This document shows, in pieces, positions 19,009-60,683 of a stretch of 64,000 nucleotides of DNA. Position 1 is the first letter of the stretch, and each line of letters begins with the position of its first letter. A model generated the notes under the pieces. It worked only from the letters and a program-made list of their open reading frames with translations. It was not told the origin of the DNA and made no database searches. The DNA comes from Planctomycetaceae bacterium (lineage in GTDB: Bacteria > Planctomycetota > Planctomycetia > Pirellulales > Thermoguttaceae). A program made the position numbers and the translations under genes. Location of the stretch: contig JAISLW010000268.1 in the NCBI GenBank assembly GCA_031277105.1, positions 98,698-162,697 on the forward strand, written 5' to 3'.

Positions 19009-19041
19009 GTTTTTGTAATAGATTGTAAGGTAATCGTATGA

Positions 19042-19530: not shown

Positions 19531-19554
19531 CTTTTGACTCCGCTTTTTATATTT

Positions 19555-19944
19555 TTAAACCGTAAATAGTTTTTTTATTTCTCGTTCCGCTTCTGGATAT
19601 AATTTATCTGTTATTTTATCCCATTGTTTTTTATCTTTTAACGCAACTTCGTTAGTAGGATCGTTTCGTAATATGTCGTCAATCCGAAACCATTCTCTAT
19701 TAGTCCCTCGTTGAAATACAGTTTCAAGGTCAAATAATTCGTTTTCACTTGCTTCCGATATTTCTTTTTTTATTTTCGCTTTAAGCGTTTCGGCTCTTTT
19801 ACGTGCAGATGATACGTAAGTTCTAATTTCTTTTTGCACAGCGTCTAATGCAGGCGAATTGAATACGCTCATTTGGCTTATCGATCCTGATTGACCGCTT
19901 TGTAATGATTCAAATAAACTTATATTCGCAACATTATTATTCAT
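19555..19944 (-). CDS. shared-leader family protein (member 5)
   Basis: N-terminus MNNNVANISLFESLQSGQSGSISQMSVFNS. Confidence 0.6.
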   Translation of the reverse strand: MNNNVANISLFESLQSGQSGSISQMSVFNSPALDAVQKEIRTYVSSARKRAETLKAKIKKEISEASENELFDLETVFQRGTNREWFRIDDILRNDPTNEVALKDKKQWDKITDKLYPEAEREIKKLFTV

Positions 19945-19959
19945 GTTCTTATTGTTTGG

Positions 19960-20271
19960 TTAAAGGTTGTCCGCTGAACCTTCGGAAGCCCAGCGTGCTG
20001 TATCCATCGCTTTGCGAAATCGACCGTCTAGTAATTTATGCTCTTCTGCTGTTAACTCTTTACTTTGCCACATAGACCATGCTTTTTCATACGCTATTTT
20101 TGCTTCCCTACGGGCTGCATACGCCTTTTTTGTAGTAGACTCTAACTCTTGCAATAACTTGGCTACTTCACTTGCCGTAATAGCGTTAAACACCGACATC
20201 TGACTTGTCGATCCTGTTTGACCGTTTTGTAACGATTCAAATAAACTTATATCCGCAACATTATTATTCAT
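19960..20271 (-). CDS. shared-leader family protein (member 6)
   Basis: N-terminus MNNNVADISLFESLQNGQTGSTSQMSVFNA. Confidence 0.6.
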   Translation of the reverse strand: MNNNVADISLFESLQNGQTGSTSQMSVFNAITASEVAKLLQELESTTKKAYAARREAKIAYEKAWSMWQSKELTAEEHKLLDGRFRKAMDTARWASEGSADNL

Positions 20272-20283
20272 GTTTTTACTCCT

Positions 20284-23596: not shown

Positions 23597-23652
23597 TTGA
23601 TATTAAAGTACAGACGCAAAGCATTGCGTCTGTATAAAAGTTAGGCAAGCGA
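23581..23652. repeat. 72-nt element, left arm of an inverted repeat bracketing the capsid gene block
   Basis: Its reverse complement matches 25898..25968 at roughly 85% by eye. Confidence 0.7.
23609..23634 (-). terminator. terminator-like hairpin after the capsid block
   Basis: TACAGACGCAA-AGCA-TTGCGTCTGTA is an 11-bp perfect stem with a 4-nt loop, about 45 nt past the stop at 23677. The trailing U-run is weak (CUUUAAU). Confidence 0.45.
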
Positions 23653-36500: not shown

Positions 36501-36640
36501 ACGGGCGTAACTTGTAATTGTTTCAAAAACGTATTTTTGATCTGTTTGGCAAACGCAGTATAACGTCTCCGTATTTCCGCCAACATCGGTCGTCTGATAC
36601 TTTGCATTCGCGTAGGGTCTTGCTGCATTGCTGTAGCCAC
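33548..36640 (-). CDS. MuF / SPP1-gp7-like minor head protein fused to a C-terminal ADP-ribosyltransferase domain; interrupted by an intein
   Basis: The MuF-family signature P-x-H-P-N-C-R-C is split as ..IPVHPN|C...N|CRCTW. The C-terminus has an R-S-E-like ART triad: LILYRRV (Arg), IVSTFATE (S-T-x), LDEIALPAR (catalytic Glu in an E-[IV]-x-L-P context). Confidence 0.65.
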   Translation of the reverse strand: MATAMQQDPTRMQSIRRPMLAEIRRRYTAFAKQIKNTFLKQLQVTPVTQNGTTTYEYDEMFVTQMTQAIKAGITTLIDTAFIAKYSDMAYKHGVNRAYADGHKSTSAYSQKIKNPADYQAGNKDAFFAAVQTSTASANTHKTLLTKYTSYYANKGSQLGAAIENIILTGVNRKEAPSIIGNAVLAEIDKQAKNVITGSRDLLVEFHAEAQLDAYDTMGIKEVAAVAEWHTAGDNKVCPACAKNEGIRLPIAKARGMIPVHPNCFTKPNTQIFTDKGWKSISEIDVENDLFLSENPETGETDFIKATKKIEYDYNGNAIEFKGRRFQLTVTANHQMYCVRRFDMSFHFIDAAKIADENLVQGYYLPTRMHRFKSQSTKTVFVGSYEIDIKLYAQCVAVWLLDNTLNRIKTNNTNNTSIPFSDTYFAAHLRQIDNGNNTFVPDVIKYADVSIVYEFLRNLELTNESKTEIYYLATSRRLMSDLCFLILRCGGSPSVSRQFIDRSIQINSICYRISRLHHVAVNSQSLTRAITQHTGKVYCVELEKWHTIYVMENGFCTWTGNCRCTWVTPEIAKRLTKTEQIKRTKESIIDTAKRLDDNVRIHANNLKQAKAELKERFEQDKTEAEAIGIDVEMILDADSDYKKLRNKVRIEEASELRAAALAADYKDSIITGQASRMLKRIDTEITEYKHKYADIAQRKHILYEKYVVDMYKEARSYISQIEEAGIDLDKYLAEIVPKRKKYQKILESGDFNRHTINKLPDVQDYINTVRKAANKVDHLSHLFNDLVNIDVAYDSNIRIDFDHVKYSHKTLNSRLVDKYWAKKETVEKGVRPVQTYSNIKTYSGIVSLDRDAKDEYALQELHKASTEGKLTEQQKNDLKKYSKTYKNPKTGKNVTVSGKQMLEDLATLQEIAEPTKVPLILYRRVHDFNHFDNHKVGEKFVWLGIVSTFATETAFNEPKHKEAFGECIIEIHVPVGSYIIPIGNKGTTWHSLDEIALPARTQIKVLRYSRSSSPPKMIVEVIPKEPVKFRD
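34961..35854 (-). mobile_element. intein (298 aa) in the HPN|CRC motif of the MuF-like protein
   Basis: Insert begins CFTKPNTQIF and ends TWTGN, followed by +1 Cys. Removing aa 263-560 restores PVHPN-CRCTW. The middle region has degenerate LAGLIDADG-like blocks. Confidence 0.6.
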
Positions 36641-36770
36641 ATTTCATCTCCATTATATTTATCGTATTTGAATTTTCGCAATTATACGGATCGTAATAGA
36701 GTCACAACGCATCGTGTCTCTATGAATAGTTAGACGGACAACGGTAAACCCCAATGCAAGTGTGAACGGG

Positions 36771-37112
36771 TTAAAAAGTTTTACCGTGTTTGTGTTGACG
36801 TGTTTTGTTAAATTCCATTTTTGCTTGCATTGCTTTTGCTATATCCCAATTTCGACCGTATGCCAAATCCATTAAGCGTATAATCAAATCGGCTAATTCT
36901 TCTTCAACTGCCGAAAACGCAGGAATATGTTCGCTTGCAGGATTGCCGTGTCGCAAACCTTCCAGCGCTTCCGATAATTCAGAATGCATCAACGCAATAC
37001 ATTCGCCGTTGTTTCGTTCCTCGTCCCAAAAGCCGGACGTTGCGGATTGGTCAAAACACAACTTCGCAACTTTATTAAATTCAGCGATAAACGCATCGTA
37101 ATTAAAATTCAT
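36771..37112 (-). CDS. MazG-like nucleoside triphosphate pyrophosphohydrolase
   Basis: HSELSEALEGLRHGN....EEELADLIIRLMDLA is the E-x-x-E...E-x-x-D MazG helix pair. Start set at ATG 37112 (MNFNYDAF); the track start is a TTG inside an upstream hairpin. Confidence 0.7.
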   Translation of the reverse strand: MNFNYDAFIAEFNKVAKLCFDQSATSGFWDEERNNGECIALMHSELSEALEGLRHGNPASEHIPAFSAVEEELADLIIRLMDLAYGRNWDIAKAMQAKMEFNKTRQHKHGKTF

Positions 37113-37122
37113 TGATTTAAAG

Positions 37123-37148
37123 TAGAGCCGCAACGCATTGCGGCTCTA
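37123..37148 (-). terminator. terminator-like hairpin (same family as 23609..23634)
   Basis: TAGAGCCGCAA-CGCA-TTGCGGCTCTA. Both arms differ from the 23609 copy but pairing is preserved (covariation). It lies about 63 nt past the ParB-like stop. Confidence 0.45.
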
Positions 37149-37210
37149 TAAAAGTTAGCAGGTTAAGTTAAACAAAAATTCAAGGGCGAATAATTTAAAA
37201 CAGTTTAAAA

Positions 37211-37870
37211 TTATTCGTCGAAAACTATACTTCTTACTTTGGCGTGAATTTCTTTGTAAGACGGCGACCAGCCTGTTCGTTCAAATAAAGCGTCTAAATC
37301 AGCCCGTAACCGTTTAGCGCTGCGGGAAACAGATTTTGTCAAAAACAATAATTGTTCTTCTTCGTCTGTAATTGGCGGCGGTTCGTCGGCGTTCAATTCA
37401 GATTGTTTCATTTCTTTAACGGCGGCGTGAACAGTTTTTTCGCCGCGTTCTATCGCTTCCAACGTTCCCGTATCCGCTTCACGTTGCAATTTCGTAGCGT
37501 CGCTGACTATTCGTTTGGAAACGTTCATAACTTCAGCCGCTTGTTCTTGCGTATAATTTTTGTCTTGCATCGTCGATAATTTTGCGGCTATCGTTGCCCG
37601 TTGCGATTCGTTCAAATGCCGCCTGTGCAAGTTACGGGATAAAACGAAACCTAACGGATCGTCGCCAAGATACGTCTCGTAATCAGGTTTAATATTTAAC
37701 ATCGTGCAAACAACAGCCCTGTTCCTGCCATCAAGTATTTTGCCCTCGTACAACGTAATCGGCGATTGCAAACCGTTCTGCTCAACATCCAAACGCAACG
37801 CTTCCAATTCATCATCCGAACACATCGGAAACAATACGCACAATTCGTGAAATACAAATTTTTCCTTCAT
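37211..37870 (-). CDS. ParB/Srx-like nuclease-domain DNA-binding protein
   Basis: The N-terminal block LQSPITLYEGKILDGRNRAVVC matches the ParB-N motif (..P-I-x-V...-I-x-D-G-x-H-R). Confidence 0.7.
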   Translation of the reverse strand: MKEKFVFHELCVLFPMCSDDELEALRLDVEQNGLQSPITLYEGKILDGRNRAVVCTMLNIKPDYETYLGDDPLGFVLSRNLHRRHLNESQRATIAAKLSTMQDKNYTQEQAAEVMNVSKRIVSDATKLQREADTGTLEAIERGEKTVHAAVKEMKQSELNADEPPPITDEEEQLLFLTKSVSRSAKRLRADLDALFERTGWSPSYKEIHAKVRSIVFDE

Positions 37871-38264
37871 ATCTTTTTTACTCCTGTTCTGAATTTAAGA
37901 TCAACATTTGACCGTGCAGTCAAACGTCAAATAAAATCTAATAAAATTTAACTCTGTAACATTTATCATATTTAATGCCCGTTATAACCAAAAAATTAAA
38001 AACAAAGTCAATCATGTTACAATTAAATAAGATTTATCACGCCGATAGGTTCAATTTTTTTAGATAAATTAAAAGACCGAATCATTGACCGTAATTGATC
38101 CGTCATGCAATATACAAAATATGAAATTGCAGAATTAGAACGCTTGAGATAAAAGAAACAACCAAAACACAGAAAAATAAACTAGATATAAACGCAGCCT
38201 AGAAGCGATTTTGTTTTTTGCGTTAAATTTTTAGAATGGAATTTTTGTCTTTTTATTGTGCCTG

Positions 38265-38519
38265 CTAGTCAAACAGGCAATCAGCGTAAACGAGTAATTC
38301 GTCTAGATCATGTTCGTTGACAATCCACACGCAACGATATTCTTGCTGTTGGTCAAGTTTGTCAAAATCATAAGAGTAAAAACGCTCGCAATCCGTAAAC
38401 TCTTCGCTTTGACGCAACAAATCTAATTCGTCGTCATAACTTGACCATTTACAATCATACTTTTGAAATAACATACTCATTTCAAATATTGCGTTGTTTT
38501 TGATGCAATTGACTAGCAT
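38265..38519 (-). CDS. small acidic hypothetical protein
   Basis: 84 aa. Starts 3 nt after the ABC ATPase stop, and its first 11 nt lie inside repeat B. Confidence 0.45.
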   Translation of the reverse strand: MLVNCIKNNAIFEMSMLFQKYDCKWSSYDDELDLLRQSEEFTDCERFYSYDFDKLDQQQEYRCVWIVNEHDLDELLVYADCLFD

Positions 38520-38592
38520 TATTCAAAAACTTTGCATAAACAATTTGCCGTCGTCATTTAAGTCGTTCAATTCAAGACAAATTTCATCGGGA
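38509..38592 (-). repeat. 84-nt direct repeat B, copy 1 (3' end of ABC ATPase gene plus start of next gene)
   Basis: 82/84 identical to 41587..41670. Confidence 0.95.
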
Positions 38593-40283
38593 TTAAAAGA
38601 ATAAAGCGAACCGTCGTTTTGCGTAGGAATATCTGAGTCAATTAGAGATATAATGTATTGAATATTGTATTGCTTACAAATTGATTTCATTCTATTCAAC
38701 AATCTAATTTTTATTCTGTTGTCTAAACCTTCTATAATTCCATCGTGATAAACGAAACGGAAAAATGATTTTTGCGAATAATAAATTAACAACGCAATAT
38801 CAAACGCCATACAAAGTAATTTTTTATACGAAGTCCCTTCTGATTCCGAAGTTGAGTTTTTATCAATAAAATCAATATATTCGGCGGTAAAATCTATATT
38901 TCCCTTTGTATTTTGTTTTATTGAAATAATAGCGTCCGTACCTACAATATCTTTTAACAATTCATTAAATATTTTATTTATGTCTGCGTGATTTCTTTTA
39001 CCTATTGTTTCTTGAATAGTCTGTATTGTTTTCTGCATTTGATCGCCAATTACTTTTAACTCCTTATTGTACAACGCCGTCTTATCAAGTAATTCTAATT
39101 TTTCATTTAACCTGTCAATATCAGACTCTAATATAGATAATTGTTTTTGATACGTTTTGAATTTTGTATATGTATCTTTTTCAGTCAAAAAAGACAATTT
39201 TTCACTCTTGGCGTTTTCCAGTTCTACAAGTTCCGTATCAATCGAATAAAGTTCCTTTTCTAGTTTTTTCAAATTTTCTTTCAAGAATTTATTTCGTTCT
39301 TCTGAAATAGATCTGTTAAATTTTTCTAACTCGTCGTATTGTTTTTTTAATTTATCTGGAAAGTATAAATTTACTTCGTCAAAAAGCGTTTTTAATTTTT
39401 GAACGTTTATAGTATTTTTTGCGTTTCTTATTGATTCTTCAATTTTAGATATTTCATAATTTACGCGGTATCGGTCTGTATGCAACGTTTGAATTTTGAA
39501 ATCTAATTGTTCAATAATCTCTTTTGAAATATTCTTGTCTTGTAAGAAAAAATTAAATTTATCTATTGTTTTTTCTGCTATTATTTTTTCTCTTTGTTTT
39601 ATATCGAGTAAACTTAACAATTTATCTTTTTCTGTAATATCAATATTTGCGTCTTGTTTTAATATGTCAATAGTGTCTTTTATCTTTTTTGCTTTTTGTT
39701 CCAAGTCTGCTTTATGCTTGATTATGTCGGCGTTAAAACCTAACGCATCAAACACAAACGGTTTCCAATCGCTATGTTTTCCCTTAAATTTATTTAACTT
39801 AAAAACGTATGAATAATCTTGTTGAGTCCTTAAAAAATAAGTGATAGACTGCCTGTAAGACCAATTAGTTAAAACATCAAAATTTAAGTAATCTTTAAGT
39901 TTTTCTTTTGCTTTGTCAAACGTCAATTCAGTTTCGTCCCAGACAACAGGCGCAATAAAATCGTTTAATTCAAAATCGTTTTGCTTAAAAGATATTTTTG
40001 AAGCCGTATTTACGCCGCGTTTGATTACAAGATATTTTCCGCTGTTGAGTTTTATTTCTAAATAAAAAGTTTGATCCGAAAATATTGAATTGAACAAGAA
40101 ATGGTCGGCGGTAAATCTACCTAGCAACAAAAAATCAATTACGTGAATGAGCGACGTTTTACCCAAGTTGTGCGTATCAGTCTTGTTGGTTTTATCTTGT
40201 ATCGTCGCCAAGACTACGTTAAAATGTTCGTTAAATTTTACGTTCTTAAAATTCTTATCAGAAAATATTTTTACCAGTTTCAT
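38523..40283 (-). CDS. ABC-3C system ATPase (SMC/Rad50-like ABC ATPase with coiled-coil insert, DUF2326-like)
   Basis: N-terminal Walker A in NVVLATIQDKTNKTDTHNLGKTSLIHVIDFLL, a ~300-aa coiled-coil middle, and a C-terminal Walker B/D-loop FFRFVYHDGIIEGLD. Confidence 0.65.
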   Translation of the reverse strand: MKLVKIFSDKNFKNVKFNEHFNVVLATIQDKTNKTDTHNLGKTSLIHVIDFLLLGRFTADHFLFNSIFSDQTFYLEIKLNSGKYLVIKRGVNTASKISFKQNDFELNDFIAPVVWDETELTFDKAKEKLKDYLNFDVLTNWSYRQSITYFLRTQQDYSYVFKLNKFKGKHSDWKPFVFDALGFNADIIKHKADLEQKAKKIKDTIDILKQDANIDITEKDKLLSLLDIKQREKIIAEKTIDKFNFFLQDKNISKEIIEQLDFKIQTLHTDRYRVNYEISKIEESIRNAKNTINVQKLKTLFDEVNLYFPDKLKKQYDELEKFNRSISEERNKFLKENLKKLEKELYSIDTELVELENAKSEKLSFLTEKDTYTKFKTYQKQLSILESDIDRLNEKLELLDKTALYNKELKVIGDQMQKTIQTIQETIGKRNHADINKIFNELLKDIVGTDAIISIKQNTKGNIDFTAEYIDFIDKNSTSESEGTSYKKLLCMAFDIALLIYYSQKSFFRFVYHDGIIEGLDNRIKIRLLNRMKSICKQYNIQYIISLIDSDIPTQNDGSLYSFNPDEICLELNDLNDDGKLFMQSF

Positions 40284-40510
40284 ATCGTTACCATATCCGA
40301 TTGTTGGTTGTAGTTAATTTTGCCTAGTAGATATAAAAACGAAAGCGAATATTCAAACAGATCGCCTATTTCTTTGCCTACTTTTTTAATAATAGCGTTT
40401 TTTAAATCATCATATTTTATTATTCCGCTTCTTGCAATTTCGTACATTATCAAACCTGAAATATACAAAACTGAATATTTTATATCCGTGTGTTTGTCGG
40501 GCGAAAGCAT
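40280..40510 (-). CDS. ABC-3C middle component candidate (small all-alpha protein)
   Basis: 76 aa from ATG 40510 with a strong SD (AAGGAGAATTAATATT-ATG); the track start is GTG. ATGA overlap with the ATPase gene. Confidence 0.5.
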   Translation of the reverse strand: MLSPDKHTDIKYSVLYISGLIMYEIARSGIIKYDDLKNAIIKKVGKEIGDLFEYSLSFLYLLGKINYNQQSDMVTI

Positions 40511-40514
40511 AATA

Positions 40515-41435
40515 TTAATTCTCCTTTTTTCCAATATCACAATTACAGTACATATAGTGTAACAAAATTCGCACTAGTCTTTTTTTGCCCTTCAAGTCGG
40601 CGTTATTATTGACCGTATAATCATAAAACGTTTCTAACAGATTTTCAAATTCCACAAATTCATTTCTTCGTAATGTAATCTTGGCGTTTAACTCGCTTAT
40701 TGTATCGTCGTATAAATCTTTTAATCCAGCGTTAATTGGAGAAACTAAAAAGGTTTTTATTTGATTAAAATATTCAAAATTACGTTTCATAACGTCGTCA
40801 AAATAAGATTTACTTAATTGGTTCAACTCGTTTTTCTTTTCTATCTCAATTTTTGTAAAATCAATAAGATTAGGCAAGACTGTTGTTTTCTTAAAAGTTT
40901 CGTTTATTGCTATAATAATTTCTTTTAGGTCAGATTCGTCAAATTCTAGTGGATTCAGTAGATTCTTGAGATTTGCAGTACGTACAATATCAGGATATGT
41001 TTGTAAAAGTTGTTGTATTTTCTCATTGGCGATAATCTCATAAACAACGTTTTGTTCATTAAATAACTCGGCTATTTTGCCGTCTTGAACTCCTGTTAGT
41101 TTTCTGTTAGTAAACAATAAATAATAATCTAATTCGCCGTTCTGTTTTAACGTTTGAATAGAGATTATTTCGTTTTTCAAGATAGTATAAAAATCGCTGT
41201 CCGAGCAACTCGCATTTTCTTTAGTTGTATGTTTTGCTTGAATAATTATTTTTCCATCCCAAGGTTTAGACTCGCTTGGAAAACAATTCGCCTGTCCAAT
41301 AAAGCGCCCGTCTTTTCCGCCGTCTTTGCCTTTAGTAAACGGGATAATTGCTTCGCCTAATATTTTATTACAAATGAGTATTACAAGTTTTTCAAACTCG
41401 TCATCATTTAATTCTTGCAATGGAAATTGACTCAT
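40515..41435 (-). CDS. ABC-3C effector candidate: N-terminal Mrr-like PD-(D/E)xK restriction-endonuclease fold plus helical C-terminal domain
   Basis: DDEFEKLVILICNKILGE...GKDGGKDGRFIG...GKIIIQAKH fits the F-E-x-L-V...G-x-D-x-G-x-D...[VI]-Q-x-K nuclease core. Confidence 0.6.
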   Translation of the reverse strand: MSQFPLQELNDDEFEKLVILICNKILGEAIIPFTKGKDGGKDGRFIGQANCFPSESKPWDGKIIIQAKHTTKENASCSDSDFYTILKNEIISIQTLKQNGELDYYLLFTNRKLTGVQDGKIAELFNEQNVVYEIIANEKIQQLLQTYPDIVRTANLKNLLNPLEFDESDLKEIIIAINETFKKTTVLPNLIDFTKIEIEKKNELNQLSKSYFDDVMKRNFEYFNQIKTFLVSPINAGLKDLYDDTISELNAKITLRRNEFVEFENLLETFYDYTVNNNADLKGKKRLVRILLHYMYCNCDIGKKEN

Positions 41436-41503
41436 TTTTAAACAATCCTTTCAATAATCTACTGTACCTTAATCGTCATTTTTGACATATAGTCAATTGC
41501 AAA

Positions 41504-41573
41504 AATTATACAGATTATCGAACAACAAGCAAATACCAAAAAAAATTCGTCCTATTGATTCTGTATTTTGTCG
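41504..41573 (-). repeat. 70-nt direct repeat A, copy 1 (upstream of the ABC-3C cassette)
   Basis: 70/70 identical to 43372..43441. Confidence 0.95.
41505..41532 (-). promoter_or_regulatory. sigma70-type promoter inside repeat A (TTGCTT-16 nt-TATAAT)
   Basis: Minus strand reads TTGCTTgttgttcgataatctgTATAAT, about 70 nt upstream of the ATG at 41435. Confidence 0.5.
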
Positions 41574-41586
41574 AGTGTTTGCACTA

Positions 41587-41670
41587 TTGACTAACATTAT
41601 TCAAAAACTTTGCATAAACAATTTGCCGTCGTCATTTAGGTCGTTCAATTCAAGACAAATTTCATCGGGA
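41587..41670 (-). repeat. 84-nt direct repeat B, copy 2 (orphan relic of the ABC ATPase 3' end)
   Basis: Begins 2 nt after the stop of the HIRAN gene. Its two differences from copy 1 are both synonymous in the frames used by copy 1. Confidence 0.95.
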
Positions 41671-41671
41671 A

Positions 41672-42322
41672 TTATTTATAAATTCTAATAAAAACTCTGT
41701 TTAATCTACCGTTTTTATCGATGTCTTTGATTTTAATTTGCAAATCTTGACCGCCTTTTTTATAGAATGCTCTTGAATGGACGATTTTTACATAACCTAA
41801 AAATACGTCATTTTTGAATACTTTGACTGCTTTGTTGTCATGTTCATTTTTGGGGTCGTATTCCCATCGTAACATATCGCCTTCTGTCAATAGTTCAGGC
41901 GATACGTTATAACGAGAAATGTCGCAAATTTCACTGATAAATGACACTCCATTTAGAGGCGTGTAATCAGCCAAAAGTTCAAAATTATCAATAGCGAGTA
42001 ATCCTTGCGTGTGTGCTAGCATATAATATTTATCCGACGTGTAACGTTTATCAATTTCCCAATAATCATAATATTTCTGTATGTCTTCCCTAATAGGATT
42101 TATAAGACGATGCCCAAACGTATCTAATACATTCTTGGTATAAGTTTTCGTTAAATCAGAAAAAGCAACATAAGAGGTAAAACCAATTTCATCAGCCTTC
42201 TTTTGGTCAATCAAATAACGAAAACAAAATTCGCCGTTACTTTTTTTTATCTCGCCTACAACATGTCGATCCATGTCATTACTCTGCCGCCAAACTAAAT
42301 ATAAAGAACCCAAATATTTCAT
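41672..42322 (-). CDS. HipA-N-terminal-subdomain-like (HipS-like) + HIRAN domain fusion protein
   Basis: The C-terminal GDMLRWEYDPKNEHDNKAVKVFKNDVFLGYV matches the HIRAN core (G-D-x-L-x-L...N-x-x-D-x-N-A-[IV]-x-V...-L-G-Y-[VI]). The N-terminal LYLVWRQ..HVVGEIKKSNGEFCFRYL resembles the HipA N-terminal domain. Confidence 0.6.
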   Translation of the reverse strand: MKYLGSLYLVWRQSNDMDRHVVGEIKKSNGEFCFRYLIDQKKADEIGFTSYVAFSDLTKTYTKNVLDTFGHRLINPIREDIQKYYDYWEIDKRYTSDKYYMLAHTQGLLAIDNFELLADYTPLNGVSFISEICDISRYNVSPELLTEGDMLRWEYDPKNEHDNKAVKVFKNDVFLGYVKIVHSRAFYKKGGQDLQIKIKDIDKNGRLNRVFIRIYK

Positions 42323-43287
42323 AATAAAACCTCTTTTAATTTATCAAAACGCAATAATATTAATTGTACTATCAACTTTTTTCTGTTGTCAGGTAATTTA
42401 TTTTCATTCAAATTATCAGGTAAATTTTCATCAATTGTATAAATAATTTGACGAATACGATCTTTGTTAAAAACGCTAATAACCCGTTTGATCTCTTGTA
42501 TAACAACATCTTTATATTTTGTATATCCTATAAACATTCGTATTAATTCAAAATGGCTTATCTTTTTATCTTCCCACCTAATTTCACATCGATCATTGTT
42601 TATATACCTATCCAACAATTCCGTTTGTAATAAAAATTTTTCCACATCTTTGTCTAATAATTCACGCCCAAGACAACTACCGCTATCATAGATAGGCGAA
42701 AAAACAACGGTATTGTTATTAGAAGTAGATTTAAGTAAATTTGATAGTTTTCGTATGTTCGATTGTTTTTTATGGTTGTTTATTTCTATAATAAATCCCC
42801 AATTTTCTTGATGTCTGTCGCCATTACCAATTAAACTATCAAAAATAATAGTTTTTATTATCTGGTTTACTTGATTTGCTAACTTGTGCGCTTTTAATGC
42901 ACTCTCAATAAAATGGAATGTGTACTGCGTATATGATTGTTTATTTTCAGGAGCGTATGTATTGTCGTAATTGCGGAGATAGTCAATGATTTCAACAAAT
43001 GTATTATTAGTTTTATCAATCATTGATTTTGAAATACAACCTATTTTATCTTTATTATATGCAATATCATAATGTAAAGTATTAAACCCTAATTCATTAC
43101 CTATTGCCGATGCAATAATTTCCGACCAAAATTCATATCTATATGCATCATTACTTCGTTGTAACGAAGTCTTAAAATAATATAATGATCTATCGTCAGG
43201 GTTTTCAACAATTGCTTTATTACGAGAACCTCTTGCAACTACATATTTTTTTTCAATCCAATCCGAAACGTCATAAAAATTTGCCAT
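42319..43287 (-). CDS. HipA-like Ser/Thr kinase core (HipT-like, lacks the N-terminal subdomain)
   Basis: ARGSRNKAIV, catalytic loop LIGNGDRHQENWGF (D-x-H-x-x-N), and IYDSGSC (DFG-equivalent). ATGA overlap with the HIRAN gene. Confidence 0.65.
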   Translation of the reverse strand: MANFYDVSDWIEKKYVVARGSRNKAIVENPDDRSLYYFKTSLQRSNDAYRYEFWSEIIASAIGNELGFNTLHYDIAYNKDKIGCISKSMIDKTNNTFVEIIDYLRNYDNTYAPENKQSYTQYTFHFIESALKAHKLANQVNQIIKTIIFDSLIGNGDRHQENWGFIIEINNHKKQSNIRKLSNLLKSTSNNNTVVFSPIYDSGSCLGRELLDKDVEKFLLQTELLDRYINNDRCEIRWEDKKISHFELIRMFIGYTKYKDVVIQEIKRVISVFNKDRIRQIIYTIDENLPDNLNENKLPDNRKKLIVQLILLRFDKLKEVLL

Positions 43288-43371
43288 TTAATTATCAGTA
43301 ATTATCTGTTTATTACTTTTGAGTACGGCGACATTGATTCTGGTGTACAATACATGTATTCTGTGCGATTG

Positions 43372-43441
43372 AATTATACAGATTATCGAACAACAAGCAA
43401 ATACCAAAAAAAATTCGTCCTATTGATTCTGTATTTTGTCG
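43372..43441 (-). repeat. 70-nt direct repeat A, copy 2 (upstream of the kinase/HIRAN cassette)
   Basis: Identical to 41504..41573. Confidence 0.95.
43373..43400 (-). promoter_or_regulatory. sigma70-type promoter inside repeat A, copy 2
   Basis: Same TTGCTT-16-TATAAT, about 86 nt upstream of the ATG at 43287. Confidence 0.5.
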
Positions 43442-43575
43442 GGCGTCTGTTACGTTTGGATTTTTTTGTTTTTTGTAGGCGTGTTCTAATTGTATTCTTA
43501 CGTAACAGACGATTTTGCGGTTTTATTTGAATTTTTGTAACGATAAAACTCTAGAGTAAACCATTGTCAATGTTT

Positions 43576-45120
43576 TTATGTTGCTTGTGCTGATTGCGAT
43601 TGTTGCTCTAACTTGGCGACTAATTGTTTATAGTCTTCGTTTTCGCGGTATAGGATGTTGTCTTGTTTAGCGTCTAGTTGTTGTTTTAATTCGGCGATTT
43701 GTTTTCGCAAGATTTCATTTTCATTGCAAACAGCGTCTAATTGCTGTTGTAATTCGGTTGTTTTAGTAACTCGTTTTGTTACAGGCGTTAAATGGTCAAC
43801 GTCGGTTGTTGTCAATTCGTATTTAACCGGCAATGGAATTTTTTCGTGCAAATCGCGGTCTACTGGCATTAGCAACGACGTAAAACTTTTAACACTGTGA
43901 TCGCTGTCAAATTGTATAACGCCGCCGTTAGTGTATATTGATTTTATGCCAAGAGACAATATACCCAGTAGATATTTCTTATTGACTACTAATGAATATT
44001 CGGGTTTTAATCCGCACGTAGTTTCGGGACTAAACGTAATGCGATAATTATTCATTGTTGACCATACGGTTGTCATTGCGAATTGTCCGTTTTCTAAACG
44101 TTCTAATTTTATCAATGTTTCGCCGTCGCATGAGCCGTTGTCGGTTTTGTTAGGGTTGACGGGTAACGCTTTCAATAATTTTATAGCGTTGGTCAAATCA
44201 GTTGCGTTAAAATCACAATACGACGTTTCGGGTGTAATTTCAGGAAAGGCGTTTTTCCACGTTACCGGTCTAATCTTATCGGACTTCAAATATAGACTGT
44301 AACCGCCTAGATCAATTACCAAGTATTGGTCAATTGTTCCTAGCGTTACAGATTGCGTAACGTCCAACAACGGCGACAACCACAGCGGCAACAAGAACGG
44401 TGAAACTGTAAAACCTTCTTCCGTTGTAGGATTTTTCGGATCGTATTTGCCTGTACATTCTTGTCGCCATTGTTGCCAAGCGTCTAATAATCTTTCGTAC
44501 TCGTCGACAATCCGCAATTCAGAATAATCAGGCAACGCCCATAAGTACGGCGGAACGTCTATGTTGTTATACGCTATCATTCGGCGCCCGTTTGTAGCAT
44601 ACATTTTATTATCCATAATATGTACGTATTCATACATCATGTGAGTATCAGAATACTCTGCAAAATCTTTACATGCCAAAAACGCTTCCGCAAAACGAGC
44701 GGACGCGATTGGGTTTAATATCTTATACGGTTCAAAATGGATTGGATGTGAATTACGGTAACCGCTACAATCAAATTCGCTAACGCACAATTGAATTGAT
44801 TGTTCAATCTGATTGTCTGTAAAATGCAACGTAACAGGTTCGGTTAAATCGTCTGAAAACGTCATTACGACTTCGCCGCTTTTACCCGCAGCCCGAATAA
44901 AATCTTCATAAGAAACCGCAAACGGATTGACAATAACATTGTCTGCATCGTTATGTAAATCGATACGAATATATTGATGGTCAAATGTTGTTATCCAAGC
45001 GTGATAACCGCTAAATTGAACTTTTCCGCAATGGTTCAAATTGCACATATCGCGAAATTTCTTTTTTAGCGCTTGGGCAATACGGTAAATCGTGGTACGA
45101 GGAATAAGGATTTCTTTCAT
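43576..45120 (-). CDS. DNA sliding-clamp (beta-clamp)-like protein with C-terminal coiled coil, divergent
   Basis: KVQFSGYHAWITTFDHQYIRIDL and YVHIMDNKMYATNGRRMIAY resemble the two clamp A-T-D-x-x-R-x blocks. Weak. Confidence 0.35.
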   Translation of the reverse strand: MKEILIPRTTIYRIAQALKKKFRDMCNLNHCGKVQFSGYHAWITTFDHQYIRIDLHNDADNVIVNPFAVSYEDFIRAAGKSGEVVMTFSDDLTEPVTLHFTDNQIEQSIQLCVSEFDCSGYRNSHPIHFEPYKILNPIASARFAEAFLACKDFAEYSDTHMMYEYVHIMDNKMYATNGRRMIAYNNIDVPPYLWALPDYSELRIVDEYERLLDAWQQWRQECTGKYDPKNPTTEEGFTVSPFLLPLWLSPLLDVTQSVTLGTIDQYLVIDLGGYSLYLKSDKIRPVTWKNAFPEITPETSYCDFNATDLTNAIKLLKALPVNPNKTDNGSCDGETLIKLERLENGQFAMTTVWSTMNNYRITFSPETTCGLKPEYSLVVNKKYLLGILSLGIKSIYTNGGVIQFDSDHSVKSFTSLLMPVDRDLHEKIPLPVKYELTTTDVDHLTPVTKRVTKTTELQQQLDAVCNENEILRKQIAELKQQLDAKQDNILYRENEDYKQLVAKLEQQSQSAQAT

Positions 45121-45235
45121 TTCAATTTTCCTTTATAGATTGTTAATTTAACGCAAACGATACCGTTATCGTTTGACTATTATAATATGCCGTTTAGAGA
45201 GCAAAAATTAGAATAAAAATTATCGTGATTGAAAA

Positions 45236-46717
45236 TTATTTTAGACCGAAATTTAGCACGGATAAATTGTCGATTTGTTCGGAGTTGTCTTCGGAGATTG
45301 CTTTTGCTCTTGCGGCTTGTGAGTTTTGCAATATTGAGTCCGCTTCCTTGTCGGACATATTCAGGAACATCATTAAAAAATCTTTTGGGCAGATTATTGT
45401 TTCGATGTTGTTAGACAGATATGAGCCGATAAGGTTTAATTTGTTGTTTGCGTTTTCGATTTTTTGTTGGTCGGTTCCGGCGTTCAAGTCGTCCCATTTG
45501 ACAAAGAAAATACCGTCTTTGGGCGCTGGCAATTCGCCGATTTGAATCAGCCGCGTTATAAACGGTTTCAATACGAAAGGCGTTAAATAACGTTTCATAC
45601 GCGTCATTAACGTTTTATTCCATTCGGCTACATCTTGCGAACTTGCCAGATCGCCGCGTTCGGAACCGCAAAATATACGCTTCGGACACGATAGCGCTAT
45701 TGCTATCAATTCAATGTTTATATCAATGTGTTCTCTTGGCGATTGGACTTGCGGGCTTAACGAATTAACGTGAGCGTTGGTCAAACCGAACCAGCGTTGT
45801 AATCCGTTTTCATACGCCGCTATTTGTTTTTTCATACTGTCTAAATCTAATTGCACGCCGGACGTAACATCGTCGACCGCTTCAACGCTGAAACCTGGAT
45901 AAGCGCCTTTATAAAACATTTCGCCGGACGAACCTGCTATTTTGCGTATATCTAAAACGTTGTTATAGACTAATTGTAAACGGGGCATACCGAATACAGT
46001 CGAAGTTTGACGATTATCAGCAAGGTGCAAAACCCGCGTCCAATGCACGTCAAGCGTCCGCATATCAACCATGCCCGTATCGTCTTGACAATTATCAGGA
46101 TCGTTAAATTGAATCCGATATAAAACAGGTTGACCGTAACGCGGGTTAGAAGTATTAGTCTCAATTTGAGAAACCTCAATTTGACTATGCGCAAAAGCAC
46201 GCAAATAAATCAATTGATATTTACCCTGCTTCAACGTTTCGGGCAAATATTCAACGCAATCTATCGGCTCGCTCAAATCTTTACCGTCTGAAACGCCAAA
46301 TAAAATTAAGCCATAAGAACCGATGCCTGATAAAATATCAGCAAGCGTCAACACGCCGTAACATTCAAACAATTCAAACGTCCGTTCTAACTTCTTTTCA
46401 AAATCGCTAGTTGACAATTGGTCTTGATCATAAATTTCAGGTTCGGACAACCAGCATTCATTCGGATAAATTGAAACAACTCGATTCGCAATTGCGTTGC
46501 GGTCGAATAATTTCTTGTACATCAATTTGTTGACTATATCAGGGTATCCGAATTGCGTATCGTAATCGCGGTTTAACGTATTCGTATCAACTTCGCCGTT
46601 TAATCCGGCAAGCAACGACCGTCTGTACAACGCTTGAATTATTTCGTTACGTACTACAACATCGTTTTGCAATTTCTCGTTTTCGATTATTACGTCTTTT
46701 TTCAGATTTTTTGCCAT
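45236..46717 (-). CDS. portal protein candidate (DUF1073-like)
   Basis: 493 aa. The size and N-terminal region (..FGYPDIVNKLMYKKLFDRNAIANRVVSIYPNECW..) match my recollection of DUF1073 portals. A MuF-like gene lies downstream on the same strand. Confidence 0.6.
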   Translation of the reverse strand: MAKNLKKDVIIENEKLQNDVVVRNEIIQALYRRSLLAGLNGEVDTNTLNRDYDTQFGYPDIVNKLMYKKLFDRNAIANRVVSIYPNECWLSEPEIYDQDQLSTSDFEKKLERTFELFECYGVLTLADILSGIGSYGLILFGVSDGKDLSEPIDCVEYLPETLKQGKYQLIYLRAFAHSQIEVSQIETNTSNPRYGQPVLYRIQFNDPDNCQDDTGMVDMRTLDVHWTRVLHLADNRQTSTVFGMPRLQLVYNNVLDIRKIAGSSGEMFYKGAYPGFSVEAVDDVTSGVQLDLDSMKKQIAAYENGLQRWFGLTNAHVNSLSPQVQSPREHIDINIELIAIALSCPKRIFCGSERGDLASSQDVAEWNKTLMTRMKRYLTPFVLKPFITRLIQIGELPAPKDGIFFVKWDDLNAGTDQQKIENANNKLNLIGSYLSNNIETIICPKDFLMMFLNMSDKEADSILQNSQAARAKAISEDNSEQIDNLSVLNFGLK

Positions 46718-46989
46718 TAGATTCTTTTCGGATTTCGTTTGTCTTTATTCGGTTTAATTTCGGGTTTAATTTTTCGTTGTTTGTTTGGTTTAGTTTCGTC
46801 AGATTTCTTTTCAGATATTTTTTGTTCTTGCGTTGCGTCGGATTCGTTTTGTTCGTTTTCGGGTTGTACAGTTTCAGACGCAGGTTCAACCGTAGGTTCA
46901 GACGGCTTGGCAGTAAAAAACGATTTAATAAACATTACTAAAAAATCGACAATTACGGCTATGATTAGTCTCCAAAATCTAATTTTCAT
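46717..46989 (-). CDS. small membrane-anchored Lys/Glu-rich protein
   Basis: 90 aa with N-terminal helix RLIIAVIVDFLVMFI. Its stop overlaps the portal ATG (TAATG). Confidence 0.45.
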   Translation of the reverse strand: MKIRFWRLIIAVIVDFLVMFIKSFFTAKPSEPTVEPASETVQPENEQNESDATQEQKISEKKSDETKPNKQRKIKPEIKPNKDKRNPKRI

Positions 46990-47088
46990 TTTATTTTCTC
47001 CCTTATTTTCAAATTGAAAACGCTAACGTTAAAAACCAAAACGTAACTATAGCCGAATTAGAATTTTTTGTGTAATTCTACGATACAA

Positions 47089-47709
47089 TTATTTAGGATT
47101 ATCGTGGAAAAAAGATACGGGCATATTTTTGCAGAATAATTCAAACGGCATCGTGTGTACAAAAACGTAATCGCCTAATTTGTCTTTATACGTTGTTTCT
47201 TGACTTGGCGTTACTGCCCATACGGGCAAACTTGACGTGCTTTTTCTAACGTCAAGAATAAAATGTAACGGAACGTGTATCAATACTTTTTTCTGGTTGC
47301 GTTTTTGGATAACAGCCCAGTACGGCGTATTGGCTTGTTTGCTAGAATTGATTGCTTGTTCGATGAATTGTGCTAATTGCGGCGATTTCTGATGTGCCAA
47401 AGAATCAACAAGCGACGTTGTTTCCGCTTTACTGTAACCCGCTTTCAATTCAAACGTAATTTTATCTGTCAACGGTTTACCGGCAACATCCAAATAACCA
47501 ATATCTCCGGCGCTATTTGCAATTGAAATACCTTTTTTCGATTTGACCGTACTCCTAGCGCCGGAGCCTAAATTACGCCAAAATAAATCAGTACGTTTGC
47601 CCTCCGAAAACCATTCGCTCAACTCGATACAAATTTGGCGTTCAAACGCTGAACCTTTACGGCTGCCGCCGCCTTTTTTCATTTTACGTTTAGGTTTAAC
47701 TTTTTTCAT
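47089..47709 (-). CDS. PD-(D/E)xK nuclease, Hjc-like Holliday-junction resolvase candidate
   Basis: KGSAFERQICIEL, GSGARST, AGDIGYLD and FELKAG give E...D...E-x-K geometry. Confidence 0.5.
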   Translation of the reverse strand: MKKVKPKRKMKKGGGSRKGSAFERQICIELSEWFSEGKRTDLFWRNLGSGARSTVKSKKGISIANSAGDIGYLDVAGKPLTDKITFELKAGYSKAETTSLVDSLAHQKSPQLAQFIEQAINSSKQANTPYWAVIQKRNQKKVLIHVPLHFILDVRKSTSSLPVWAVTPSQETTYKDKLGDYVFVHTMPFELFCKNMPVSFFHDNPK

Positions 47710-48187
47710 TTTCCTTGTATGTTTTTAGTTGTTCGAGTATTTCAGGCTGCGTTTCCCGCAACCGTTTAATCAACGTCGTCGAAGTCAACAATATATCTTT
47801 ACCTTGCATTTCTTTGATAGTATCTTTCAACACGTTTCGCACGTCGTCGACAGTTAATCCGAACACGTCGCTTAACGTTGTATAAACGTAATTGCGTACT
47901 AAACTCAATCGTTTTTCATCGGGCATATTGTCAAGGTTAGCGGGTAAAATTGGTTTAGGTTGTTTCGGCGTTGGCAGCGGCGCTTGTTTCGGTTTAACGC
48001 TGACTTTTTTCAATATGTCTTTTACATCTTTCAAACCGCTTTTTACGTCTTTCAAAACGCTTTTTACATCGCTCTTAATCGCATCAATATCGCCGAATAA
48101 CGATTTCAAAACGCTTAACGCATCCATACCGTTAGACGGCGACGTTTTATACTCATTGCGATTTACAGGTCGGATAGTTCGTCTCAT
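47696..48187 (-). CDS. hypothetical protein
   Basis: 163 aa with SD TAAGGAAACGAA-ATG. Contains the internal repeat VKSVLKDVKSGLKDVKDILKKV. Confidence 0.5.
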   Translation of the reverse strand: MRRTIRPVNRNEYKTSPSNGMDALSVLKSLFGDIDAIKSDVKSVLKDVKSGLKDVKDILKKVSVKPKQAPLPTPKQPKPILPANLDNMPDEKRLSLVRNYVYTTLSDVFGLTVDDVRNVLKDTIKEMQGKDILLTSTTLIKRLRETQPEILEQLKTYKENEKS

Positions 48188-60410: not shown

Positions 60411-60424
60411 GCGATTAAAAGTAA

Positions 60425-60444
60425 AGACGCAATGCATTGCGTCT
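60425..60444 (-). terminator. terminator-like hairpin (same family)
   Basis: AGACGCAATGCATTGCGTCT is a perfect 20-nt palindrome. Confidence 0.4.
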
Positions 60445-60683
60445 CTGCAAACAAACGAGTGTAAACGCAAATTAAAATACGAACAATTTAAATAACGGGA
60501 AAACAAAAAGATTACGCAATTCCTAATATCTTGATATACAGAATCAATAAAAAATACAAAAAGAAAAAATAACGCAGTCAAACAGTACACTAAAATTTTT
60601 TATGAAAAAAACGTGAAATCTTATTTGCAACAATTTGACCGCGTCAAATCCGACAAAAGTTAGCGGTTTTCTGTAACCTATTA

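What the first reader, a model, noticed from the sequence alone, without database searches (positions are those of the whole stretch)
41672..43287. Split HipA-like kinase plus a HipS-like/HIRAN fusion: candidate undescribed DNA-end-sensing toxin-antitoxin or defence pair carried by a phage
These are two translationally coupled genes (ATGA overlap at 42319-42322).

- **Kinase gene (322 aa).** It has a HipA-type kinase core: ARGSRNK, LIGNGDRHQENWGF and IYDSGSC. It appears to lack the HipA N-terminal subdomain.
- **Fusion gene (216 aa).** It opens with a segment that looks like that missing subdomain (LYLVWRQ..HVVGEIKKSNGEFCFRYL, FGHRLINPIRED). It ends in a clear HIRAN domain (GDMLRWEYDPKNEHDNKAVKVFKNDVFLGYV).

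Two pieces of established knowledge are relevant. In the tripartite HipBST module, the HipA N-subdomain is a separate protein (HipS) that neutralises the kinase HipT. HIRAN domains bind 3' ssDNA ends and stalled forks.

My inference is a kinase toxin restrained by a HipS-like partner whose HIRAN domain could release it when foreign or replicating DNA ends appear. I know of no named defence system with this pairing.
Basis: partly seen in the sequence, partly recalled or inferred. Interest (0 to 1): 0.85.

Follow-up and report, generated by a model that had tools for sequence, protein, structure and literature searches.

The report
Phage-borne HipA-like kinase plus HIRAN partner
This is a real two-gene pair (a HipA-family kinase and a partner ending in a DNA-end-binding HIRAN domain), but the pairing was already described in 2021 as "hipIN" and is catalogued as defence candidate PDC-M03, so this is a new phage-borne member of a known but untested kind.

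Summary
Two intact minus-strand genes, 42319-43287 (322 aa) and 41672-42322 (216 aa), overlap by ATGA.

- **Kinase:** a HipA-superfamily enzyme without N-subdomain-1. It passes Pfam HipA_C, and its model is closest to CtkA, then HipA and HipT. The catalytic residues are invariant in its family.
- **Partner:** the C-terminal domain is a clear HIRAN domain (34 of 35 relatives; model matches HLTF HIRAN). The N-terminal "HipS-like" domain has only fold-level support, one HipA match at probability 0.97. Sequence tests were not significant.
- **Linkage:** 79 of 85 related loci keep the kinase directly upstream, 50 with the same 4-nt overlap. Natural single-protein fusions exist.

The claim that the pair is undescribed is wrong. 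Gerdes et al. 2021 defined hipIN (HipI kinase plus HipS-HIRAN HipN) and proposed the same DNA-end-sensing abortive-infection idea. PADLOC lists the pair as PDC-M03. Deposited phages already carry it. I found no experimental test.

New here:
- It belongs to a Bacteroidota-centred branch that is absent from the held supplement text of Gerdes et al.
- It lies in a low-GC island of a large phage.
- It sits next to an ABC-3C system, and both cargoes are bracketed by the same 78-nt and 85-nt repeats.

The parts
42319..43287 (-). HipI-like Ser/Thr kinase (322 aa), the putative toxin. It is a HipA-superfamily core without N-subdomain-1.
   Evidence: Pfam HipA_C E=1.8e-7, above the gathering score. PADLOC PDC-M03A E=1.3e-54. 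AF2 model pLDDT 87.8. Foldseek: CtkA 3AKK TM 0.72/0.78, E=2.6e-11; HipA of Shewanella and E. coli and HipT(Lp) 7WCF all at probability 1.00. At least 934 homologues.
43216..43236 (-). Gly-rich (P-) loop, VARGSRNK, residues 18-24. Ser21 occupies the family's near-invariant Thr position and is a candidate autophosphorylation site.
   Evidence: G20, R22 and K24 are invariant and T21 is at least 90% conserved in 33 homologues. [quoted passage not shown]
42802..42828 (-). Catalytic loop, GNGDRHQEN, residues 154-162. D157 corresponds to HipA D309 and N162 to HipA N314.
   Evidence: G154, N155, D157, R158, H159, E161 and N162 are invariant. hhalign aligns LIGNGDRHQENWGF with HipA LIGATDGHAKNFSV.
42685..42693 (-). 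Mg-binding motif, IYD, residues 199-201.
   Evidence: I199, Y200 and D201 are invariant. The sequence was read directly.
42319..42322 (-). ATGA stop/start overlap, indicating translational coupling.
   Evidence: The same 4-nt overlap occurs in 50 of 85 related loci and in all 14 IMG/VR loci where the kinase gene is complete; in the 15th, L089, it is cut by the contig end.
41672..42322 (-). HipN-like partner (216 aa), the putative antitoxin and sensor.
   Evidence: PADLOC PDC-M03B E=8.3e-29 over residues 6-209. AF2 model pLDDT 94.6, pTM 0.90. Family of 1035 representative clusters at 50% identity.
41948..42322 (-). N-terminal domain of the partner, about residues 1-125, candidate HipS-like / HipA N-subdomain-1-like fold. 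W11 and W88 are invariant.
   Evidence: HipA 2WIU_C is the only non-HIRAN Foldseek hit with high probability (0.97, E=0.12, 119 columns). Sequence tests were negative or weak.
41675..41947 (-). C-terminal HIRAN domain, about residues 126-216. The NEHD motif (residues 159-162, nt 41837-41848) carries D162, which aligns with HLTF D94.
   Evidence: Pfam HIRAN in 34 of 35 family members. Foldseek HLTF HIRAN 4S0N/4XZG E about 2e-4, probability 1.00, TMt 0.54-0.58. The profile aligns with HLTF 'NPYDKNAIKV'. D162 is invariant.
43372..43449 (.). Repeat D2, copy b: 78 nt upstream of the kinase gene.
   Evidence: 96% identical to 41504-41581.
41504..41581 (.). Repeat D2, copy a: 78 nt upstream of the ABC-3C operon.
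41586..41670 (.). Repeat D1, copy b: 85 nt starting 1 nt after the partner's stop codon. It is a stranded copy of the 3' end of the ABC-3C ATPase gene.
   Evidence: 98% identical to 38508-38592.
38508..38592 (.). Repeat D1, copy a: the true 3' end of the ABC ATPase ORF plus 15 nt.
38523..41435 (-). Neighbouring three-gene ABC-3C system, given as context for the same island. It is not part of the Hip pair. The genes are an effector with CTD12 (40515-41435), middle component MC8 (40280-40540) and a DUF2326 ABC ATPase (38523-40283).
   Evidence: Pfam CTD12 1.8e-29, MC8 4.6e-11, DUF2326 9.8e-25. PADLOC PDC-M68B 4.3e-54.

Best explanation
The pair is a hipIN-type (PADLOC PDC-M03) two-gene module carried as accessory cargo by a large phage.

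**Shown**
- Gene 1 encodes a catalytically competent HipA-superfamily Ser/Thr kinase that lacks N-subdomain-1.
- Gene 2 encodes a two-domain protein with a C-terminal HIRAN domain.
- The two genes are translationally coupled and almost always found together. In some genomes they are fused into one protein.
- The pair lies in a low-GC island that a related phage lacks, next to an ABC-3C system.

**Inferred, by analogy with HipBST and HipA**
- The N-terminal domain of the partner docks on the kinase where HipA carries N-subdomain-1 and keeps it inactive. It may do this by inserting one of its invariant Trp residues, as HipS does.
- The HIRAN domain binds free 3' DNA ends that appear during infection by another phage.
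- This binding relieves inhibition of the kinase.
- The kinase then phosphorylates an essential host protein, most likely a translation factor such as an aminoacyl-tRNA synthetase, and stops growth (abortive infection).
- In a phage genome this would serve to exclude competing phages.
For: **Identity of the two proteins**
- Pfam and PADLOC hits support both assignments.
- The kinase model matches CtkA, HipA and HipT.
- K39, D157, N162 and D201 are invariant in the kinase family.
- HIRAN is supported by Pfam in 34 of 35 relatives and by Foldseek against HLTF HIRAN bound to DNA.
- D162 is invariant and aligns with HLTF D94.
- HipA 2WIU_C is the only high-probability non-HIRAN structural match for the partner.

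**Linkage**
- 79 of 85 loci carry the kinase directly upstream.
- All 15 IMG/VR loci carry both genes.
- Fusion proteins exist: P0319 (560 aa) and a 519-aa protein in a P2-like phage.

**Defence context**
- Type I R-M subunits are the commonest neighbours of the pair, and GmrSD and AAA_15 genes also occur nearby.
- In Clostridioides phage phiCDKH02 the pair sits in the lysogeny module.
- In Escherichia phage 899 the fused form lies between the replication genes and the portal gene.
- In this window an ABC-3C system is adjacent.

**Published support**
- Gerdes et al. 2021 published the model (PMC8262856).
- HipS inhibits HipT by inserting a Trp into the active site (PMC10627512).
- In L003 and L005 the kinase gene appears broken while the partner is intact. 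That is expected if the kinase is toxic.
Against: - No member of hipIN, hipL or PDC-M03 has been tested in any paper I could find. Toxicity, neutralisation, the trigger and the target are all inference.
- Homology of the N-domain to HipS or HipA is not detectable by sequence here, and no HipS chain appeared among the Foldseek matches shown.
- HLTF's Arg71/Tyr72 position is not conserved in this family.
- The phage encodes gp32-like and UvsX-like proteins. Its own replication should therefore produce many 3' ends, so a generic 3'-end trigger would fire on the carrier itself.
- The module has no HipB-like or other helix-turn-helix regulator.
Confidence: 0.55

Rival explanations
1. The pair is an addiction (post-segregational killing) module. 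The kinase toxin and its labile HipN-like antitoxin stabilise the accessory island or the phage or prophage genome. HIRAN only tethers the complex to DNA, or it autoregulates the operon in place of the missing HipB.
For: The pair has a classical type II toxin-antitoxin layout and translational coupling. It has no helix-turn-helix partner, although hipBA and hipBST both have HipB. It occurs on mobile elements.
Against: HIRAN domains studied so far bind DNA 3' ends without sequence specificity (cited), which makes a poor operator-binding repressor. The pair is found with R-M and other defence genes. A virulent-type phage gains little from plasmid-style addiction.
Confidence: 0.2
2. The kinase is an offensive phage tool. 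It phosphorylates host proteins during this phage's own infection for host takeover or to disarm host defences, as the T7 kinase does. The HIRAN partner times its activity to the onset of phage DNA replication.
For: The carrier looks like a large phage with recombination-dependent replication, which makes many 3' ends. Broad counter-defence by a phage kinase has been reported (the T7 kinase papers listed). This reading would resolve the self-triggering problem.
Against: The same pair is mostly chromosomal in Bacteroidota and other bacteria, often in defence islands. It is catalogued from defence-island statistics. The island has foreign GC content and is absent from the related phage, so it is not core phage biology. 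Characterised HipA-family kinases block translation, which the phage also needs.
Confidence: 0.12
3. The pair has no toxin or immunity role. It is a DNA-damage or replication-stress signalling module in which HIRAN senses stalled forks and the kinase regulates repair or growth.
For: In eukaryotes, HIRAN domains act in fork remodelling. In Actinobacteria the pair is linked to diDNase genes.
Against: The pair has a patchy, mobile-element-associated distribution and neighbours that are defence genes. Apparent kinase pseudogenisation with an intact partner suggests the kinase carries a cost.
Confidence: 0.08

Closest known systems
hipIN modules: HipI kinase plus HipN (HipS-like + HIRAN) putative antitoxin. 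Gerdes, Baerentsen and Brodersen, mBio 2021 (PMC8262856).
   Same: The kinase is short, lacks N-subdomain-1 and has its Gly-rich loop near the N terminus with a Ser/Thr in it. The downstream gene encodes a two-domain protein ending in HIRAN.
   Different: That study sampled only 14 hipIN modules, from Actinobacteria, Firmicutes, Proteobacteria and Cyanobacteria. This member belongs to a large Bacteroidota-centred branch and lies in a phage. I did not test its placement in their tree.
PADLOC-DB v2 candidate defence system PDC-M03 (a HipA-domain protein plus a HIRAN-domain protein).
   Same: Both proteins hit the PDC-M03A and PDC-M03B models strongly, and the genes are adjacent. That is how the candidate is defined.
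   Different: PDC-M03 is a statistical candidate with no reported experiment. It makes no statement about mechanism.
HipL: a single-protein kinase-HipS-like-HIRAN fusion (Gerdes et al. 2021).
   Same: It has the same three domains in the same order. Close fusions of this family exist: P0319, at 34% and 38% identity to the two proteins here, and the 519-aa protein of the P2-like Escherichia phage 899.
   Different: In this window the domains are split over two overlapping genes.
HipBST tripartite toxin-antitoxin system (E. coli O127, Legionella). PMC10627512, PMC9325769.
   Same: The N-subdomain of HipA is a separate protein that neutralises a truncated kinase. The kinase model matches HipT(Lp) 7WCF at TM 0.55.
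   Different: The gene order is reversed, with the partner downstream. There is no HipB. The partner carries an additional HIRAN domain. The kinase is only remotely related to HipT (profile E=0.05). The target, TrpS for HipT, is unknown here.
CtkA (JHP0940) of Helicobacter pylori, PDB 3AKJ/3AKK/3AKL.
   Same: It is the closest solved structure and the closest sequence in the PDB. The profile search gives E=3.4e-12 across both lobes, and Foldseek gives TM 0.72-0.80.
   Different: CtkA is described as a secreted pro-inflammatory kinase. No HIRAN partner is known to me (from memory, not tested). Identity is about 18-19%.

Membership tests
hipIN (Gerdes et al. 2021) | Short kinase (279-321 aa reported) that lacks HipA N-subdomain-1, with the Gly-rich loop close to the N terminus | tested here: met
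   The protein is 322 aa. The Gly-rich loop is at residues 18-24. The HipA_C match starts at residue 19 and there is no Couple_hipA hit. Its size and fold resemble CtkA and HipT.
hipIN (Gerdes et al. 2021) | Conserved core kinase motifs (Gly-rich loop, catalytic motif, Mg-binding motif, activation loop) | tested here: met
   G20/R22/K24, K39, D157/N162 and Y200/D201 are invariant in 33 homologues. The catalytic loop aligns with HipA D309/N314. I did not map the activation loop separately.
hipIN (Gerdes et al. 2021) | Downstream gene whose product has a C-terminal HIRAN domain | tested here: met
   Pfam HIRAN E=2.2e-5, which is 0.1 bit below the gathering score for this protein, but 34 of 35 relatives match with a best E of 7.5e-8. 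Foldseek matches HLTF HIRAN at probability 1.00.
hipIN (Gerdes et al. 2021) | N-terminal domain of the downstream protein is HipS-like (homologous to HipA N-subdomain-1) | tested here: inconclusive
   Foldseek matches HipA 2WIU_C at probability 0.97, E=0.12, 119 columns, but the aligned residues are not reported and no HipS chain is among the 50 matches shown. Couple_hipA hits 1 of 35 relatives at E=0.15. hhalign gives E=0.028 over 22 columns. The shuffle z-score is 2.8 for this protein but the family median is about 0.
hipIN (Gerdes et al. 2021) | [quoted passage not shown] | not tested
The supplement text contains no Bacteroidetes entries.
PADLOC PDC-M03 | Adjacent genes that match the PDC-M03A and PDC-M03B profile HMMs | tested here: met
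   E=1.3e-54 for the kinase and 8.3e-29 for the partner, and the genes overlap by 4 nt.
Type II toxin-antitoxin system | The toxin inhibits growth and the cognate partner neutralises it by direct binding | not testable with these tools
   There is only indirect evidence: conserved coupling, natural fusions, and an apparently disrupted kinase with an intact partner in L003 and L005.
Anti-phage defence system | Confers measurable protection against phage infection | not testable with these tools
   I found no experimental report for hipIN, hipL or PDC-M03.
HIRAN domain (functional 3'-end binder) | Conserved 3'-OH pocket residues (the HLTF N-x-Y93-D94 motif) | tested here: met
   The family consensus is NxYD, and here it is NEHD. 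D162 is invariant, N159 is at least 90% conserved, and the preceding position is almost always Y, F or H. The position equivalent to HLTF R71/Y72 is variable.

The most novel reading that the evidence does not exclude
A roughly 170-kb phage with its own recombination-dependent replication carries a hipIN module as an inter-phage weapon. Because such a phage makes abundant 3' ends itself, the HIRAN sensor would have to tell foreign DNA ends from the carrier's own, or the carrier would need a self-immunity factor. The [D2-cargo-D1][D2-cargo-D1] array would then be a homologous-recombination cassette-exchange site, between the portal and head-morphogenesis genes, where sibling phages swap and stack defence systems.
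Probability: 0.2. Interest if true: 0.6.

Novelty: new member of a known kind. Interest (0 to 1): 0.35.

Why it matters
The kinase + HipS-like/HIRAN idea is not new. It has been in the literature since 2021 and in PADLOC since 2023, and it is still untested.

This locus adds three things:
- **Family size.** The family is much larger than the 14 modules originally sampled. The partner alone has about 1000 clusters at 50% identity, centred on Bacteroidota.
- **Phage carriage.** Phages of several kinds carry the pair. They include this large phage, a P2-like coliphage carrying the fused form between its replication genes and portal gene, and a C. difficile temperate phage.
- **Stacking with another system.** Here it sits beside an ABC-3C system, and both are bracketed by identical flanks. 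This is a clean example of defence cargo being exchanged and stacked by recombination.

It also poses a sharp question for any future experiment. How does a sensor of 3' DNA ends avoid firing on a carrier phage that replicates through recombination intermediates?

Tried and rejected
**Sequence proof that the partner's N-domain is HipS-like.** None of these was significant, so I rest the claim on the fold match and on the published alignments.
- A profile of the family found no HipA or HipS entry in the PDB at E<=10.
- Pfam Couple_hipA hit only 1 of 35 relatives, at E=0.15.
- hhalign against an alignment of HipA N-domains gave E=0.028 over 22 columns.
- hhalign against full-length HipA gave a spurious alignment.
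- A Smith-Waterman shuffle test gave a family median z of about 0.
- My third homologue search, seeded with the E. coli HipA N-domain, returned almost only near-identical E. coli fragments, so the HipA profile was shallow.

**Searches for sibling phages with other cargo at the same site.**
- Megablast of 36000-48000 against GenBank phages found no match.
- The 514-aa neighbouring protein had no relative in IMG/VR.
- Exact D2 and D1 patterns had no match in the metagenome contigs or in IMG/VR.
- The portal protein found one distant relative, L102, which lacks the island.

**Other dead ends.**
- The exact partner protein is not on record in the contig index.
- The promoter and terminator scan of the island gave counts at the chance level, so I make no claim about a promoter in D2.
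- I rejected a "third conserved gene". Clustering the neighbours of 100 loci showed nothing conserved beyond frequent type I R-M subunits and integrase-like genes.
- Literature searches for experimental work on HipI, HipN, HipL or PDC-M03 returned only the 2021 phylogeny, genome reports and false hits on the surname "Hirano".
- A multimer prediction could not be run with these tools.
Full report
**1. The observation**

One search lists two intact minus-strand ORFs: 42319..43287 (322 aa) and 41672..42322 (216 aa). The plus strand at 42319-42322 reads tcat, which is ATGA on the coding strand. The partner's start codon therefore overlaps the kinase's stop codon.

**2. The kinase**

The kinase passes Pfam HipA_C: E=1.8e-7, 31.5 bits against a cut-off of 30.5, covering residues 19-167. 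There is no hit to the HipA N-terminal model. The Gly-rich loop (VARGSRNK) sits at residues 18-24, so N-subdomain-1 is absent.

A family of at least 934 homologues exists. In an alignment of 33 of them the following are invariant:
- G20, R22 and K24 in the Gly-rich loop.
- K39.
- The catalytic loop G154, N155, D157, R158, H159, E161, N162.
- Y200 and D201.

The catalytic loop aligns with HipA LIGATDGHAKN, so D157 corresponds to D309 and N162 to N314. The protein therefore looks like an active enzyme, not a pseudokinase.

The closest solved relative is H. pylori CtkA. A family profile finds it at E=3.4e-12. The AlphaFold model (pLDDT 87.8) matches it at TM 0.72-0.80. HipA of Shewanella and E. 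coli and Legionella HipT follow, all at probability 1.00.

**3. The partner**

The model is very confident (pLDDT 94.6, pTM 0.90).

*C-terminal half.* It is a HIRAN domain.
- Pfam HIRAN matches 34 of 35 family members.
- Foldseek matches HLTF HIRAN, including the DNA-bound entries, at E about 2e-4 and probability 1.00.
- The family motif NxYD (NEHD here) aligns with HLTF NPYD. The Asp, D162, is invariant. From my own knowledge of the HLTF structures, the equivalent HLTF residue D94 contacts the DNA 3'-OH.

*N-terminal half.* The evidence is weaker.
- HipA (2WIU_C) is the only non-HIRAN structure in the PDB that matches with high probability (0.97, E=0.12, 119 columns). That fits the size of the N-domain.
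- HMMER profile searches, Pfam Couple_hipA, hhalign and a shuffle test give no significant sequence similarity to HipA's N-subdomain.
- I therefore call the "HipS-like" reading plausible and consistent with the published alignments, but not proven here.

**4. Linkage**

- I gathered 85 loci that encode a relative of the partner: 80 from GTDB genomes, mostly Bacteroidota, and 5 from contig look-ups. Of these, 79 have a kinase relative immediately upstream on the same strand, and 50 have exactly the same 4-nt overlap.
- All 15 IMG/VR viral contigs with the partner also carry the kinase.
- Single-protein fusions exist. P0319 (560 aa) aligns with the kinase over residues 3-335 and with the partner over residues 338-550. 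A 519-aa protein of the P2-like Escherichia phage 899 hits PDC-M03A and then PDC-M03B.
- No third gene is conserved. The commonest neighbours are type I R-M subunits and integrase-like genes. GmrSD and AAA_15 genes also occur nearby.

**5. What is already known**

- Gerdes, Baerentsen and Brodersen 2021 (PMC8262856) describe hipIN. [quoted passage not shown] They also describe the fused form, HipL.
- They state the hypothesis that HIRAN recognises DNA ends of invading phage, activates the kinase and causes abortive infection.
- PADLOC-DB v2 contains the pair as candidate PDC-M03. [quoted passage not shown]
- A 2025 NAR paper notes that the pair adjoins diDNase genes in Actinobacteria and cites both sources.
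- I found no experimental test of any member.
- For the analogy: HipS neutralises HipT by inserting a conserved Trp into the active site (PMC10627512). The partner family here has two invariant Trp residues, W11 and W88. Any equivalence between them and the HipS Trp is speculation.

**6. Context in the window**

- The window is phage DNA. It encodes a portal protein, a prohead protease-like protein, a DNA polymerase, a helicase/primase, a UvsX-like recombinase, a gp32-like protein and a clamp-loader-like ATPase, and carries a tRNA-Met gene. Almost all long ORFs are on one strand.
- The exact proteins are deposited as belonging to a "Planctomycetaceae bacterium" MAG, on a 171,649-bp contig. The only related viral contig found is 167,820 bp. 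The bin label is therefore probably a mis-assignment of a large phage.
- In that relative, only one 242-aa gene lies between the portal gene and the homologue of the 1030-aa head protein. Here about 8.6 kb lies between them.
- Within that stretch, 38500-43500 has GC of 0.27-0.32 against about 0.40 outside. It holds two systems: the Hip pair and a three-gene ABC-3C system, made up of a CTD12 effector, an MC8 middle component and a DUF2326 ATPase.

**7. The repeats**

Read in the direction of transcription, the island is D2 - Hip pair - D1 - D2 - ABC-3C, with the ABC-3C operon ending in D1.
- D2 is 78 nt and its two copies are 96% identical.
- D1 is 85 nt and its two copies are 98% identical.
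- The edges of identity are sharp, and neither repeat occurs elsewhere in the window.
- The D1 copy after the Hip pair starts one base after the partner's stop codon. It is a stranded copy of the last ~70 nt of the ATPase gene.

The simplest reading is that sibling genomes carried either cargo between the same flanks, and that one homologous (Campbell-type or unequal) crossover stacked them. I could not find such siblings.

**8. Mechanism and rivals**

My preferred explanation is the published hipIN model placed in a phage: a kinase toxin held by its partner, released when HIRAN meets free 3' ends, giving growth arrest that excludes competing phages.
- I put the identity of the parts at about 0.9.
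- I put the mechanism at about 0.45-0.5. The overall confidence of 0.55 reflects both.

The main difficulty is that this phage probably replicates through recombination intermediates and would trigger a generic 3'-end sensor itself.

The rivals are an addiction module with HIRAN as a DNA tether (0.2), an offensive phage kinase timed by HIRAN (0.12), and a non-immune replication-stress signalling pair (0.08).

**9. Verdict**

- The claim of an undescribed system is wrong.
- This is a new, phage-borne, Bacteroidota-branch member of hipIN / PDC-M03.
- Carriage of such modules by phages is already visible in GenBank: Clostridioides phage phiCDKH02, annotated as HipA-domain and HIRAN-domain proteins next to the integrase, and two P2-like phages.
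- The interest is moderate. It rests on the untested mechanism, the stacked-cassette architecture and the self-triggering question.

Noticed in passing
window 38523-41435 (-): A complete three-gene ABC-3C system lies directly downstream of the Hip pair. Its effector (306 aa) has a weak Mrr-like N-terminus and a CTD12 domain, the middle component is MC8 (86 aa), and the DUF2326 ABC ATPase (586 aa) matches PADLOC PDC-M68B.
   Followed up: partly
window 38508-38592, 41504-41581, 41586-41670, 43372-43449: The two different defence cargoes are each bracketed by the same 78-nt upstream repeat and 85-nt downstream repeat. The downstream repeat after the Hip pair is a stranded 3' fragment of the ABC ATPase gene. 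This suggests that sibling phages swap and stack cassettes by homologous recombination.
   Followed up: partly
window 36641-45235, compared with L102 11429-12157: A related 168-kb IMG/VR phage (portal 44% identical) has only one 242-aa gene between the portal gene and the head-morphogenesis homologue. This window has about 8.6 kb there, so the site is a variable accessory region. The 514-aa ORF 43576-45120 in this region has no family hit.
   Followed up: partly
window 33548-36640 (-): The 1030-aa head-morphogenesis-like ORF is about twice the length of its homologue in L102 (481 aa), and only about 200 residues align. Pfam finds nothing at E<=1e-3. An inserted element, possibly intein-like, is conceivable but was not checked.
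   Followed up: no
window 23603-23644, 37117-37158, 60416-60457: A 42-nt element with a GC-rich perfect palindrome (for example GTACAGACGCAAAGCATTGCGTCTGTA) recurs at three intergenic sites. It looks like a shared terminator or regulatory hairpin.
   Followed up: no
window 16054-16323; 12487-12597, 18902-19012, 19421-19531, 19835-19945, 20162-20272: There is an exact-register tandem duplication of 135 nt (98% identical). There is also a family of small paralogous genes that share conserved 5' ends.
   Followed up: no
L103 3101-4660 (Escherichia phage 899, PV533660.1) and Yersinia phage GMG73: Two P2-like phages (33.8 kb each) encode a fused kinase-HipS-like-HIRAN protein of 519 aa, the HipL type. 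It lies between the replication genes and the portal gene; from memory, this corresponds to the classical P2 accessory hotspot. It is annotated only as a hypothetical protein. This would be a convenient E. coli model for testing the family.
   Followed up: partly
L104 2092-3681 (Clostridioides phage phiCDKH02, PP767789.1): A temperate C. difficile phage carries the split pair, annotated as HipA-domain and HIRAN-domain proteins, between its ImmA/XRE lysogeny genes and its integrase.
   Followed up: partly
L003 and L005, 8811-10004: In two chromosomal loci the kinase gene appears broken into ORFs of 27, 35 and 277 aa, while the partner gene is intact. The same locus in L004 has a 346-aa kinase. 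That is expected if the kinase is costly.
   Followed up: no
whole window / source contig: The exact proteins are deposited as belonging to a 'Planctomycetaceae bacterium' MAG on a 171,649-bp contig, but the gene content is that of a large phage. The homologues of the Hip pair are mostly Bacteroidota, so the bin assignment and the true host are doubtful.
   Followed up: no
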